This document shows, one piece after another, positions 1 through 2,799 of a stretch of 2,799 nt of DNA. Position 1 is the first letter of the stretch, and each line of letters begins with the position of its first letter. The notes beneath the pieces were generated by a model, which worked only from the letters and a program-made list of their open reading frames with translations, did no database searches and had not been told where the DNA came from. A program made the position numbers and the translations under genes. Origin of the DNA: a virus (lineage: Duplodnaviria; Heunggongvirae; Uroviricota; Caudoviricetes). The stretch is taken from IMG/VR virus record IMGVR_UViG_2778261536_000004. One strand, written 5' to 3'.

Positions 1-126
1 TCAAAGACATGCTTTAACCAACACGGTAATTATCATCCAGTGGTCATAGCAGTCGTTGATGTTCTCCGCTTCGATAACTCTGTTGAATGGTTCTCCATTC
101 CATTCACCTGTGACTCGGAAGTGCAT
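1..126 (-). CDS. Small hypothetical protein, 41 aa (MHFRVTGEWNGEPFNRVIEAENINDCYDHWMIITVLVKACL)
   Basis: Seen in sequence: ATG at 124-126 (minus), TGA stop at 1-3, and a GGAG Shine-Dalgarno 8 nt upstream (minus-strand TATGGAGATGATAA-ATG). Not in the supplied ORF track (short); hand-translated. It lies just downstream of the terminator at 165-195, so its transcription source is unclear. Confidence 0.3.
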   Translation of the reverse strand: MHFRVTGEWNGEPFNRVIEAENINDCYDHWMIITVLVKACL

Positions 127-215: not shown

Positions 216-497
216 TTACTTCTTGGCGTTCTGTTCATCCATATCGATATACCATGGGTTGCTTCCCTTGGGCATGTTTAACGACTGCTCGCGATAGTAT
301 CTGATGCGCTCCATGAAATACTCGCGTGAGTGCTCAGGTTGCTCTCATGATACCTGCTCAGTGATAACAGGTATGTTAAGGCGCTCTCTGTACTCCATGC
401 CTGATGCTGCAAGGTCAACGTTTACCTTGTTCTGTTTTTCTTTCGATTTCTCGGCGATGTTATGCCTGACATTGTCAACCCGCCTCCTTCTGAACAT
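216..497 (-). pseudogene. Reading frame of 93 codons interrupted by a single in-frame TGA (plus 345-347); possible nonsense-disrupted gene, or alternatively just a 32-aa ORF at 216..314
   Basis: Seen in sequence by hand translation of the minus strand: ATG at 495-497, 50 codons (MFRRRRVDNVRHNIAEKSKEKQNKVNVDLAASGMEYRERLNIPVITEQVS), TGA, then 42 codons in the same frame (EQPEHSREYFMERIRYYREQSLNMPKGSNPWYIDMDEQNAKK) to TAA at 216-218, followed by the terminator. There is no convincing Shine-Dalgarno at the 497 ATG, and the first codons (AGA AGG AGG CGG) are really the 3' end of the overlapping 475..717 gene in another frame. Inference only. Confidence 0.25.
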
Positions 498-717
498 AAC
501 GGTTATAAATCAGTCCCTGAGGGCCATAAGGAAGCGGGATGTGCAACTCCTCTGGTTCAGAAACTATCCATTCCCCGGCCATCTCCGCTGGAGAGGTAAT
601 GATAAGTTGTTTGCTAATAAAAGGACCACTCCTCTCAACAACAAGCTTACCATCTTCATTAATAAAAGCTTGGATGTCAGGTGTGCTTCCACACTTGGTG
701 ATGCAGCGTTTGAACAT
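475..717 (-). CDS. Hypothetical small phage protein, 80 aa (MFKRCITKCGSTPDIQAF...NRYVQKEAG)
   Basis: Seen in sequence: the ORF track gives 475..759, but the ATG at 757-759 and the one at 730-732 lack a ribosome-binding site. The ATG at 715-717 is preceded by a purine-rich G tract (GGGGGGA, 6 nt spacer), so I prefer that start. TGA stop at 475-477. The opposite-strand ORF 304..762 has junk-like, Cys/Ser/Leu/Phe-rich composition. No family recognised. Confidence 0.5.
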   Translation of the reverse strand: MFKRCITKCGSTPDIQAFINEDGKLVVERSGPFISKQLIITSPAEMAGEWIVSEPEELHIPLPYGPQGLIYNRYVQKEAG

Positions 718-747
718 TTTGTGTCCCCCCATTTTATGTACGGGGTA

Positions 748-777
748 ATTATAACACATTGAAATATAGTAATATTT
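748..777 (-). promoter_or_regulatory. Candidate extended -10 promoter (TGnTATAAT) with adjacent palindrome, directing leftward transcription of the 475..717 gene
   Basis: Seen in sequence: minus-strand TGTTATAAT (the TATAAT hexamer is plus 748-753 reverse-complemented), placing a transcription start near 741. The inverted repeat AAATAT-AGTA-ATATTT (plus 762-777) overlaps the expected -35 region. The intergenic region 760-843 is AT-rich, so chance matches are likely; there is no good -35 hexamer. Confidence 0.3.
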
Positions 778-1927: not shown

Positions 1928-2221
1928 TCAGTCATTACTGATAGCGCCATAGCGTGAGCGGTAATTACGCAGGCGCGGGTCAATTTCAGGGAAGTGGGTA
2001 TATGTGGCTTTGCGGAATGGTCGGATTGATGTCTGGTAAATTCGCTCTCGTTCTTCTTTCTCTGCAAGCCATATACAGTGGCGAAATTCCTTTTCCTCTT
2101 TCGTTTCCTGCGGTAGCGACATTATCCGATCGTAGTTTTTTCTGAATTTATCCAGCACCTCTGATACGGAATTGCCGGAACAGCGGCGCGCGTCGTCCGC
2201 ACCATACAGAGGCGCTGGCAT
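1928..2221 (-). CDS. Hypothetical phage protein, 97 aa, Glu/Lys/Arg-rich
   Basis: Seen in sequence: ATG at 2219-2221 preceded by AGGAG (minus CAGGAGAAAATC-ATG); TGA stop at 1928-1930. It starts 13 nt downstream of the ssb-remnant stop. No family recognised. Confidence 0.6.
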
Positions 2222-2234
2222 GATTTTCTCCTGA

Positions 2235-2453
2235 TTAAATTGCGTGAATAGCGTGACGAGGGAAGGGGAGAGTTACTGGTGCAAAGGGTATATCGTCGTC
2301 AAAATCCATAGGTGGTTCGCTGTGATTCCCCTGCTGCTGAGATTGCTGTCTTTGTTGCTGACCGTTATTTCGCTGAGGTGAAGACTGTTCATTGCCTCCT
2401 TGCTTGCCACCAAGCATTTGCATGGTTCCACCAACGCCCACGATGACTTCGGT
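2235..2453 (-). pseudogene. ssb: ssb (single-stranded DNA-binding protein) 3' remnant: OB-fold N-terminus missing, C-terminal linker and acidic tip retained, native stop lost
   Basis: Seen in sequence: the minus-strand frame encodes [20 protein letters not shown]...[12 protein letters not shown]. Established knowledge: E. coli SSB has [20 protein letters not shown] followed by a Gly/Gln/Pro-rich linker and ends ...[11 protein letters not shown]. Upstream of about 2453 the similarity stops (frame closes at TAA 2508-2510, no OB-fold sequence in any minus frame). After DIPF the frame continues 15 codons ([15 protein letters not shown]) to TAA at 2235-2237. Confidence 0.6.
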
Positions 2454-2799
2454 AAGTGATTTTGAAATTAACTTAAAAGTCGCGCATATCGTGCTAGGAA
2501 AAAACAATTACGACTGGGATCCAGAAAAGAAAGAAGTTTACTTGGCTGGAATTGATGGTGGTGAGTTTTTGCCTTGCGGATATTTCGACCCATGTAATAT
2601 GGCCGCTGACGCATATCCGATCATCACTGAAAACAAAATTAGCACCATGTGGATGACAGCGGAAAAAGAATGGTGCGCATGGTCAGGAGGTGATTTAGAG
2701 GAAGGTTGTTGGGTTCCTGACTACTGCTTCTGCGGTGAATCGCCTCTCCGCGCAGCCATGATTGTATTTCTCATGATTCAGGACGCCAATAATGCTTAG
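2443..2799 (+). CDS. Hypothetical Trp/Cys-rich protein on the plus strand; start uncertain, possibly 5'-truncated at the ssb junction
   Basis: Seen in sequence: plus-strand frame open from 2392 to TAG at 2797-2799. From about 2460 the translation is protein-like (…[35 protein letters not shown]…[46 protein letters not shown]), while all three minus-strand frames over 2508-2799 are broken by stops or lack an ATG. Codons before about 2455 are antisense to the ssb linker. The ATGs at 2422 and 2443 have no Shine-Dalgarno. No family recognised. Confidence 0.35.

What the first reader, a model, noticed from the sequence alone, without database searches (positions are those of the whole stretch)
2235..2507. 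ssb remnant retaining only the disordered linker and acidic tip, with the terminal DIPF no longer C-terminal
The retained region matches the SSB OB-fold-to-tail segment closely (17 of 20 identical to E. coli SSB over [20 protein letters not shown], plus the exact [11 protein letters not shown] tip). The entire N-terminal OB fold is absent and the stop after DIPF is replaced by a 15-codon extension. The simplest reading is a decaying recombination-module ssb in a cryptic prophage. A less likely alternative is a small expressed SSB-tail-like peptide starting at the internal ATG at M29 or M31; because SSB partner proteins bind the free C-terminal Phe, the extension argues against tail-mimic function.
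Basis: partly seen in the sequence, partly recalled or inferred. Interest (0 to 1): 0.55.

Follow-up and report, generated by a model that had tools for sequence, protein, structure and literature searches.

The report
Dead phage ssb fragment, native tail
This is the leftover 3' end of a phage single-strand-binding-protein gene in a badly decayed E. coli prophage, cut off by one large deletion; the 15 extra residues after its DIPF motif are the normal, conserved ending of this class of phage SSBs, not decay.

Summary
Window 2235-2454 (minus strand) encodes the last 72 residues of a phage SSB: the final OB-fold strand, the linker, the [11 protein letters not shown] tip and 15 further residues.

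The truncation comes from one deletion. The sequence is 100% identical to an intact prophage ssb up to base 2454. It is 100% identical to a ninX gene from base 2453, so the two overlap by 2 nt (TA). By the Sf6 gene order, about 11 kb is missing: recombinase, kil, cIII, N, PL, repressor, PR, replication genes, ninB and ninE.

The same junction is found on at least 24 E. coli draft contigs. There it lies in a roughly 6-kb prophage stump between a truncated dsdC and IS1/intS. None of 5,426 complete genomes has it. No gene caller has ever called the fragment.

The intact 171-aa SSB has the same ending (...[19 protein letters not shown]) and occurs on 404 contigs. A 14-16-residue extension of this pattern follows DIPF in at least six unrelated phage ssDNA-binding protein families. 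It is conserved at the amino-acid level despite many synonymous changes.

In Sf6, an HNH homing endonuclease gene sits exactly between DIPF and the extension.

The remnant itself is ordinary. The conserved extended tail appears undescribed and is the only interesting part.

The parts
2235..2454 (-). ssb-derived remnant: the last 72 codons of a 171-codon phage ssb (residues T100-I171) plus the stop codon
   Evidence: 100% identical to the ssb/abc2 region of E. coli PK5074 over window 2200-2454. The translation matches the intact 171-aa SSB and E. coli SSB residues 99-178.
2412..2453 (-). Last beta-strand of the OB fold ([14 protein letters not shown]), the only piece of the DNA-binding domain that is kept
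   Evidence: Alignment to E. coli SSB 100-113. There is no PF00436 hit for the fragment.
2316..2411 (-). Q-rich disordered linker (GGKQGG...GNHSE)
   Evidence: Alignment to the SSB linker. The equivalent region of a related extended-tail SSB is predicted disordered, with pLDDT below 52.
2283..2315 (-). Acidic tip [11 protein letters not shown] (SSB-Ct motif), internal here rather than C-terminal
   Evidence: Exact match to the E. coli SSB tip. This is the DNA that is recoded and interrupted in Sf6 by the HNH gene insertion.
2238..2282 (-). Native 15-residue C-terminal extension [15 protein letters not shown]
   Evidence: It is present in the intact 171-aa SSB, which is on 404 contigs. There are 65 distinct 14-16-aa variants after IPF on many scaffolds. 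The amino acids are conserved with synonymous codon changes.
2453..2454 (.). Deletion junction with 2-nt microhomology (TA) between ssb and ninX
   Evidence: Base-by-base comparison: identity to ssb ends at 2454 and identity to ninX begins at 2453. The same junction is in L005, L007 and L008, and the junction peptide is on 22-24 contigs.
2455..2507 (-). First 18 codons of the mechanical ORF ([18 protein letters not shown]); this is the antisense of ninX, not ssb
   Evidence: 100% identity of 2453-2799 to ninX of E. coli M2021-10044802/2-E on the plus strand.
2443..2799 (+). ninX', a NinX gene whose first 6 codons are replaced by 4 codons read from the antisense of ssb ([11 protein letters not shown]...). 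It is annotated by NCBI as a NinX-family protein of 118 or 125 aa.
   Evidence: Pfam PF10765; comparison with the intact 120-aa NinX; exact proteins found in the collection.
1928..2221 (-). abc2 (anti-RecBCD protein 2), the intact gene immediately downstream of the remnant
   Evidence: PF11043 at 5.6e-63, full length. The 14-nt spacing to the ssb stop is the same as in the intact prophage.

Best explanation
The feature is a non-functional 3' remnant of a lambdoid/P22-like prophage ssb gene.

A single illegitimate-recombination deletion, with 2-nt TA microhomology, joined ssb at codon 99/100 to codon 6 of ninX. This removed the 5' 60% of ssb and, by the gene order of related phages, about 11 kb of early genes. 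The lost genes would be the Rad52/Erf-type annealase, kil, cIII, N, PL/OL, the repressor, PR/OR, cro, cII, the replication genes, ninB and ninE. Because PL is gone and only the last OB-fold strand remains, the fragment cannot bind ssDNA and has no dedicated promoter. It is a relic in a roughly 6-kb prophage stump at the dsdC-argW (IntS) site of one E. coli lineage.

The 15 residues after DIPF were not created by decay. They are the normal C-terminus of this SSB type. The unit DDDIPF-AP[IV][GT]L[PQM][FY]xxxx[IL][HY]x[ILFM] is a discrete, disordered peptide module that occurs on several unrelated phage ssDNA-binding scaffolds. In the intact proteins it most likely acts as a short linear interaction motif that changes what the SSB tip binds.

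Status of each step:
- Shown: the junction, the context, the nativeness of the extension and its conservation.
- Inferred: the size and content of the deletion, the lack of expression, and any function of the extension.
For: - Junction. Window 2200-2454 is 100% identical to the intact ssb-abc2 region of PK5074, and 2453-2799 is 100% identical to an intact ninX.
- Genes on either side. The intact neighbours are Rad52/22, kil, cIII and N on the ssb side, and ninB and ninE on the ninX side. In Sf6 these two points lie about 11 kb apart with the whole immunity and replication region between them.
- Real, not an artefact. The junction-specific NinX' proteins are on 22-24 E. coli contigs. Four loci that carry them are 99.8% identical to the window over all 2,799 bases.
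- Context. The order is evgSA-emrKY-dsdAX, truncated dsdC, theta, Ead, DUF7739, DUF2737, abc2, [remnant], ninX', ninF, ninG, ninH, IS1, intS, yfdC.
- No gene call. None of four possible translations of the fragment exists among about 15 billion predicted proteins.
- No OB fold. PF00436 does not hit the fragment.
- No obvious promoter. No promoter-like site above the chance level lies upstream.
- Extension is native. The intact 171-aa SSB ends identically and is on 404 contigs. The extension also occurs on other protein families:
  - phrog_44 SSBs of E. coli, Salmonella, Cronobacter, Xenorhabdus, Klebsiella and Vibrio
  - the two-OB SSB-like family phrog_4477, in Klebsiella, Acinetobacter and Escherichia myophages
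  - phrog_3284, phrog_2544, phrog_9002/DUF669 and phrog_32668
.
- Discrete module. The number of residues after IPF is bimodal: 0 in 120 proteins and 14-16 in 130 proteins.
- Protein-level selection. Window against Acinetobacter phage ABPH49: 10 of 15 residues identical, 9 of them with different codons. Vibrio against Escherichia phage G1: 11 of 15 identical, 10 with different codons.
- Disorder. AF2 predicts the tail, including the extension, to be disordered.
Against: - No expression data were available. Read-through transcription from ninX-antisense or IS1-proximal promoters cannot be excluded.
- The internal ATG at M29 (window 2423) is preceded by GGTGGA, a weak Shine-Dalgarno-like sequence.
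- The fragment carries no inactivating point mutations. It is 100% identical to the intact gene, so the deletion is recent and sequence alone cannot show relaxed selection.
- The deletion size rests on the gene order of other phages, not on the direct ancestor.
Confidence: 0.9

Rival explanations
1. One reading: a decaying ssb in which a mutation removed the stop codon after DIPF, adding 15 read-through codons.
For: The E. coli chromosomal SSB and many phage SSBs, for example Sf6 gp27, end exactly at DIPF.
Against: - The fragment is 100% identical to an intact gene that has the same ending.
- Extension length is discrete at 14-16 aa, with 65 variants conserved at the amino-acid level across unrelated scaffolds.
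- In Sf6 the DIPF-stop form is the derived one. An HNH gene plus a recoded tip was inserted, and the old extension remains fused in frame to the end of the endonuclease. The HNH family profile ends 16 residues before that tail.
Confidence: 0.02
2. The fragment is an expressed small protein (62 or 60 aa, from M29 or M31) that acts as an SSB-tail decoy and competes for partners of the tip and extension.
For: - A GGTGGA lies 4 nt upstream of the ATG at 2423.
- The ORF is intact.
- Several other tail-only ssb remnants exist in databases (P0012, P0013, P0027, P0033, P0044).
- The tail module is a conserved interaction-type peptide.
Against: - None of the four candidate products is in a 15-billion-protein collection, although the locus is in at least 24 assemblies.
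- The natural promoter PL is deleted, and no promoter-like site above the chance level lies upstream.
- The short form is confined to one lineage with one junction.
- One sub-lineage already has a non-synonymous change, E64K at base 2318.
- The other remnants have different junctions and look like ordinary deletion products.
Confidence: 0.05
3. The ssb-ninX junction is an assembly chimera, so the fragment is not a real feature.
For: No complete E. coli genome among 5,426 carries the junction.
Against: The junction-specific protein is called on 22-24 contigs from independent assemblies, some of them 200-254 kb long. All share the same chromosomal context and are 99.8% identical to the window.
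Confidence: 0.01

Closest known systems
E. coli SSB C-terminal tail (disordered linker plus SSB-Ct tip ...[15 protein letters not shown])
   Same: The last OB-fold strand is identical at 17 of 20 positions, the linker is Q/G/P-rich, and the 11-residue tip is identical.
   Different: In the window, and in its intact parent, Phe is not the C-terminus; 15 conserved residues follow. From established knowledge of SSB-partner complexes such as ExoI, RecQ, chi and PriA, the free alpha-carboxylate of the last Phe is part of the binding determinant. An internal DIPF is therefore expected to bind differently. That expectation was not tested here.
Shigella phage Sf6 gp27 (SSB) and gp26 (HNH endonuclease)
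   Same: The ssb sequence is near-identical up to the PPM codons, and the flanking abc2 is the same. The 14 residues [14 protein letters not shown] are identical.
   Different: Sf6 carries an HNH homing-endonuclease gene of the I-KsaII family inserted between DIPF and the extension, together with a recoded tip (NFDDSDIPF*). As a result the Sf6 SSB ends at a free Phe and the old extension terminates the endonuclease. The window has the uninterrupted allele.
Cryptic prophage remnants at the argW/dsdC (IntS) site of E. coli, such as CPS-53/KpLE1 of K-12 (from my own knowledge of the K-12 map)
   Same: The chromosomal site is the same, between dsdC and intS-argW-yfdC. The decay is of the same kind, by deletions and IS elements.
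   Different: The surviving gene set differs. This remnant retains theta, Ead, DUF7739, DUF2737, abc2, the ssb stub and ninX'-ninH, and its left end cuts into dsdC.
Phage HK620 SSB, whose last six residues (NDYPPF) recruit and stimulate its cognate annealase Sak4 (PMC5928155)
   Same: It is a lambdoid-phage SSB encoded next to the recombinase, with a C-terminal peptide that mediates partner binding.
   Different: The SSB family and tail are different, and the HK620 protein ends at Phe. No partner of the extension described here is known.
Bas52_0087, a two-OB SSB-like phage protein with an FDDDIPF motif that triggers the DRT10 defence system (bioRxiv 10.64898/2026.04.29.721553)
   Same: By its description (two OB folds, more than 351 residues) it resembles the roughly 400-aa phrog_4477 proteins of Vequintavirinae-type phages, which carry the SSB tip on a non-canonical scaffold. 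I did not compare the sequences.
   Different: That paper discusses only the tip, not a conserved extension after it. I did not check whether Bas52_0087 itself has the extension.

Membership tests
SSB (PF00436, OB-fold single-strand DNA-binding protein) | Complete OB-fold DNA-binding domain of about 100 residues | tested here: not met
   There is no PF00436 hit for the 90-aa ORF. Only the last strand aligns. The intact relative hits PF00436 positions 1-99 of 104 at 2.1e-38.
SSB (PF00436, OB-fold single-strand DNA-binding protein) | Disordered linker followed by the acidic tip ...DFDDDIPF | tested here: met
   Exact [11 protein letters not shown] at residues 65-75.
SSB (PF00436, OB-fold single-strand DNA-binding protein) | The Phe of the tip is the C-terminal residue (free carboxylate) | tested here: not met
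   15 codons follow before the stop. The same holds in the intact parent.
Gene remnant (pseudogene) in a defective prophage | Truncated relative to intact orthologues at a defined rearrangement junction | tested here: met
   The junction is at 2453/2454, between sequences that are 100% identical to intact ssb and intact ninX.
Gene remnant (pseudogene) in a defective prophage | The surrounding element lacks essential phage modules | tested here: met
   L005-L008 contain no immunity, replication, lysis or morphogenesis genes, and the element is flanked by a truncated dsdC and IS1.
Gene remnant (pseudogene) in a defective prophage | Not expressed as a protein | not testable with these tools
   Only indirect evidence is available: PL is deleted by inference, no promoter-like site exceeds the chance level, and the fragment is never called as a gene.
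   [15 protein letters not shown] fits the position frequencies derived from 40 distinct 15-mers.
Beta-clamp-binding motif, hexapeptide class Q-phi-x-L-x-[LF] (consensus as given in bioRxiv 10.64898/2026.05.27.728225) | Gln at position 1 | tested here: not met
   The position is Pro in 35 of 40 variants.
Beta-clamp-binding motif, hexapeptide class Q-phi-x-L-x-[LF] | Aliphatic residue at position 2, Leu at position 4, Leu or Phe at position 6 | tested here: inconclusive
   Position 2 is I/V in 36 of 40 and position 4 is L in 35 of 40. Position 6 is F or Y in 31 of 40 but E or H in 7. Binding to the clamp could not be tested.
HNH homing-endonuclease-interrupted ssb allele (Sf6 type) | HNH gene between the DIPF codons and the extension codons | tested here: not met
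   The window is uninterrupted. It carries the unrecoded DFDDDIPFA-coding sequence that is replaced in Sf6.

The most novel reading that the evidence does not exclude
The 14-16 residues after DIPF define an undescribed, phage-specific extended SSB tail. It is a disordered short linear motif under protein-level selection. It has been shuffled among at least six unrelated phage ssDNA-binding scaffolds in phages of Enterobacterales, Vibrio and Acinetobacter. It also appears to be the homing site of an HNH endonuclease family.

By burying the normally free C-terminal Phe and adding a second hydrophobic patch (P-I/V-G-L-Q/P-Y/F ... I-H-x-I), it would redirect the phage SSB. It might turn the protein away from some host SSB-interacting proteins, or towards another conserved host factor, the beta clamp being one guess. 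The window holds only a dead copy of this module.
Probability: 0.45. Interest if true: 0.6.

Novelty: new member of a known kind. Interest (0 to 1): 0.33.

Why it matters
The fragment itself matters little. It is one more deletion scar in a cryptic prophage, useful only as a lineage marker and as a clean example of a 2-nt microhomology deletion that also rebuilt an in-frame start for ninX.

What could matter is the by-product. The field treats the free C-terminal Phe of the SSB tip as central to partner binding. Yet a large, diverse set of phage SSB-type proteins keeps a perfectly conserved tip followed by a conserved 15-residue cap.

If that cap changes partner choice, it bears on several questions:
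- how phages use or evade the host SSB interaction network
- recombineering with phage SSB and annealase pairs
- defence systems that sense phage SSBs

The Sf6 and HK75-type allele pair, with and without the homing endonuclease, gives a natural pair of near-identical SSBs that differ only in whether Phe is free.

Tried and rejected
- Word-indexed protein search with a 19-aa extension-only alignment.
- The same search with 40-aa tails. It returned only fragments of 70 aa or less, so it gave variants but no architectures. The exhaustive profile search was used instead.
- Full-text literature searches for the motif strings [57 protein letters not shown] and GLQYGR. These found nothing relevant. 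Two keyword searches on phage SSB tails found papers on the tip only.
- PDB sequence search with the tail profile. Every match stops at DIPF and no solved chain has the extension.
- Rfam scan of the window: no family matched.
- Promoter and terminator scan of 1900-2799: one weak promoter-like site, at the chance level, and no terminator.
- AF2 of an intact extended-tail SSB, to see whether the extension docks on the OB fold. The tail was predicted disordered, so there is no support for an intramolecular role.
- Beta-clamp-binding motif. I considered it and did not adopt it: the defining Gln is absent and position 6 is variable.
- ClpX-type C-terminal degron (basic residues followed by A-I-COOH, as in MuA, recalled from memory). 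This resemblance could not be tested.
- Estimating the deletion size from PK5074 failed, because that prophage is itself deleted on the ninX side. The Sf6 map was used instead.

Full report
**1. Observation**

The window has a minus-strand ORF at 2235-2507, 90 codons long with a TTG start. Its residues 19-75 align to E. coli SSB residues 99-178 in PDB chain 1eqq_[21 protein letters not shown] against [20 protein letters not shown] is 17 of 20 identical, and the [11 protein letters not shown] tip is exact (E = 1.1e-8).

The fragment also matches PHROG SSB families, with phrog_44 at 3.7e-13, and phage or prophage SSBs in the large protein collection at up to 1.5e-39. Pfam's SSB domain does not hit it, whereas the intact relative hits nearly the whole profile. 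Fifteen codons, [15 protein letters not shown], follow DIPF.

- Only 2235-2454 is ssb-derived.
- The last OB-fold strand is retained along with the linker and tip.

**2. How the truncation arose**

A megablast of the window against 5,426 complete E. coli genomes finds thousands of lambdoid or P22-like prophages that share parts of it. None spans 2459/2460.

The left part matches prophages with the gene order Ead/Ea22, DUF7739, DUF2737, abc2, ssb, Rad52/22-type annealase, kil, cIII, N. The right part matches ninX in the order ninB, ninE, ninX, ninF.

Base by base:
- Window 2200-2454 is 100% identical to E. coli PK5074.
- Window 2453-2799 is 100% identical to E. coli M2021-10044802/2-E.
- The overlap is the dinucleotide TA.

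This is the signature of one illegitimate-recombination deletion. ssb and ninX are transcribed divergently, from PL and PR, so the deletion removed both 5' ends and everything between them. On the Sf6 map the two points are about 11 kb apart. They enclose the annealase, kil, cIII, N, PL/OL, the repressor, PR/OR, cro, cII, the replication genes and ninB/ninE. This content is inferred from gene order.

By chance the antisense of ssb supplies an in-frame ATG at 2443. NinX therefore reads [11 protein letters not shown]... instead of MDYSQL-SDFEINL....

**3. Is the junction real, and where is it?**

The junction-specific NinX' proteins (118 and 125 aa) exist in the 15-billion-protein collection on 22-24 E. 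coli contigs. Four loci that carry them are 99.8% identical to the whole window and give the following order:
- evgS-evgA-emrK-emrY-dsdA-dsdX
- a truncated dsdC (window bases 1 to about 30)
- a theta-like gene, a small ORF, Ead/Ea22, DUF7739, DUF2737, abc2
- the remnant, which is not called as a gene
- ninX'-ninF-ninG-ninH
- IS1, the integrase, yfdC

This is the dsdC-argW (IntS) site. PK5074 has a different decayed prophage at the same place.

The element is a stump of about 6 kb with at least three deletions.

None of the four plausible translations of the remnant (from the TTG, the GTG, M29 or M31) is in the collection. The promoter scan finds nothing above the chance level upstream, and Rfam finds nothing.

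The remnant has no point mutations relative to the intact gene, so the deletion is recent. One sub-lineage has E64K.

**4. The extension is not decay**

The intact PK5074 gene (WP_032266179.1, 171 aa) ends ...[26 protein letters not shown], 14 nt before abc2, exactly as in the window. That exact protein is on 404 contigs.

Divergent relatives keep the extension:
- Salmonella and a second SSB allele
- Cronobacter: APATLPFPRHTIQAI
- Xenorhabdus: APIGKQYPGHAIHAI
- Proteus and Providencia: APIGLPYPRHAIYVI

A tblastn of the tail against 50,697 phage records hits 183 records, and 90 of them cover at least 80% of the 31-aa query.

The extension also sits on unrelated scaffolds:

| Source | Protein | Tail |
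|---|---|---|
| Vibrio phage V039C | canonical SSB | DIPFAPVGLQYGRNLLHVI |
| Klebsiella phage VIK251 | 406 aa, phrog_4477 | DIPFAPIGLPYGRNFIHCI |
| Acinetobacter phage ABPH49 | 413 aa, phrog_4477 | DIPFAPIGLQYARHAIHAI |
| Phapecoctavirus phages | 308-310 aa | APIGLQYGRNFLHCF |
| Escherichia phage morffagbaw | SSB | ASVGLQYGKHRIYAL |
| Escherichia phage BUCT618 | SSB | ATIGLQYGKSRIYAL |
| Citrobacter phage Omnitron | unannotated ORF | APIGLPFPSHSIYAL |
| K. aerogenes prophage (P0043) | second OB scaffold, 35% identical | APITLPFPRHTIHVI |

An exhaustive profile search of 1.84 billion representatives gave 99 hits at E of 0.001 or better, and about half extend into the extension. These include proteins of 128-480 aa from phrog_3284, phrog_2544, phrog_9002/DUF669 and phrog_32668. 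In each PHROG family the profile ends at DIPF. The extension is therefore present in only a subset of members in each family.

Three facts argue for a selected peptide module rather than read-through:
- **Discrete length.** Among 284 retrieved proteins, the number of residues after IPF is 0 in 120 and 14-16 in 130, with almost nothing between. There are 65 distinct extension sequences.
- **Synonymous variation.** Window against ABPH49: 10 of 15 residues identical, 9 with different codons. Vibrio against Escherichia phage G1: 11 of 15 identical, 10 with different codons.
- **Position-specific conservation.** The pattern is A-P-[IV]-[GT]-L-[PQM]-[FY]-x4-[IL]-[HY]-x-[ILFM].

AF2 on an intact extended-tail SSB gives a confident OB fold and a disordered tail, with pLDDT below 52 and no secondary structure. 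This fits a short linear interaction motif. No PDB chain contains the extension. Full-text searches for the motif strings found nothing. Papers on phage SSB tails discuss only the tip: PMC5928155 for HK620 and bioRxiv 10.64898/2026.04.29.721553 for Bas52_0087.

**5. The DIPF-stop form in close relatives is the derived one**

In Sf6, ssb (gp27, 157 aa) ends NFDDSDIPF*. It is followed by gp26, an HNH endonuclease whose last 14 residues are [14 protein letters not shown].

On the coding strand, Sf6 and the window are near-identical up to the PPM codons. Sf6 then has a recoded tip, a stop codon and the HNH gene. Identity resumes at A-CCA-GTA-ACT, the PVTL codons.

The HNH family profile ends 16 residues before the gp26 C-terminus, so the tail is not intrinsic to the endonuclease. 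The family includes the intron-encoded I-KsaII of Staphylococcus phages.

In phages nieznany and morffagbaw, a related HNH gene starts at an ATG inside the Y-G codons of the extension.

The simplest reading is that the DNA encoding the tip and extension is a homing site. The window carries the uninterrupted target allele. Cleavage specificity is inferred, not shown.

**6. Mechanism and verdict**

- The remnant is a dead gene fragment: it has no OB fold, no PL promoter and no gene call. Confidence is about 0.9.
- An expressed tail decoy starting at M29 remains possible but is unsupported (about 0.05).
- Stop-codon loss (about 0.02) and an assembly artefact (about 0.01) are effectively excluded.

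For the intact proteins, the extension most likely changes partner binding of the SSB tip, but its target is unknown.

I considered a beta-clamp-binding hexapeptide, using the consensus Q-phi-x-L-x-L quoted in bioRxiv 10.64898/2026.05.27.728225. P-[IV]-G-L-[QP]-[YF] matches the hydrophobic positions, but it lacks the defining Gln and varies at position 6. It is a lead only.

**7. Novelty**

The finding as given is an ordinary prophage pseudogene fragment, so it is a new member of a known kind with low interest. The conserved extended tail that it happens to preserve seems undescribed in the searchable literature. It is worth a separate look, using intact genes rather than this remnant.

Noticed in passing
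window 2238-2315 (-); L004:4107-4586 (-); L013:1565-2059; L014:1547-1987: An HNH homing-endonuclease family (Sf6 gp26, phrog_2340, related to intron-encoded I-KsaII) is repeatedly found at the DNA encoding the SSB tip and extension. In Sf6 it sits between DIPF and the extension, with the tip recoded. In phages nieznany and morffagbaw it starts at an ATG inside the Y-G codons of the extension.
   Followed up: partly
window 2443-2799 (+): The deletion rebuilt an in-frame start for ninX from the antisense of ssb ([11 protein letters not shown]... instead of MDYSQL-SDFEINL...). NCBI annotates the 118- and 125-aa products as NinX-family proteins on 22-24 contigs.
   Followed up: yes
window 2451-2459 (-) and proteins P0012, P0013: Three independent ssb remnants begin at the same TTEV codons: the window (fused to ninX antisense), P0012 (fused to the N-terminus of the Rad52-type annealase) and P0013 (fused to an unrelated leader). 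This may be chance, or it may be a recombination or mosaic boundary at the end of the OB fold.
   Followed up: no
window 1-30 (+); L005:7032-7628: The window starts inside dsdC, which is truncated (198 aa called, against 311 aa intact) where the prophage stump begins. torI and the left attachment region, present in PK5074 and ETEC4089, are missing.
   Followed up: partly
window 1958, 1961, 2042, 2048, 2078 (abc2): The only differences shared by all four related loci L005-L008 are five substitutions clustered in 120 bp of abc2. This suggests a small recombination patch rather than scattered mutation.
   Followed up: no
A5 alignment; L019-L021:5001-5468: A Klebsiella aerogenes prophage SSB with a different OB scaffold (about 35% identical) carries an almost identical tip plus extension ([28 protein letters not shown]). 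The tail therefore appears to have been exchanged as a cassette between ssb genes. Its neighbours are Arf, a Rad52/22-type annealase and the SSB.
   Followed up: partly
L001:5267-5768 (E. coli ETEC4089): In ETEC4089 the roughly 500 bp between abc2 and a 157-aa ssb carries no annotated gene. By comparison with Sf6 this is where the HNH endonuclease gene lies, so it is probably unannotated or decayed there.
   Followed up: no
window 475-759 (-) and 304-762 (+): A 94-aa ORF downstream of Ead/Ea22 has no Pfam match. It is called as an 80- or 94-aa gene in related loci, next to a theta-like (HolE family) pseudogene.
   Followed up: no
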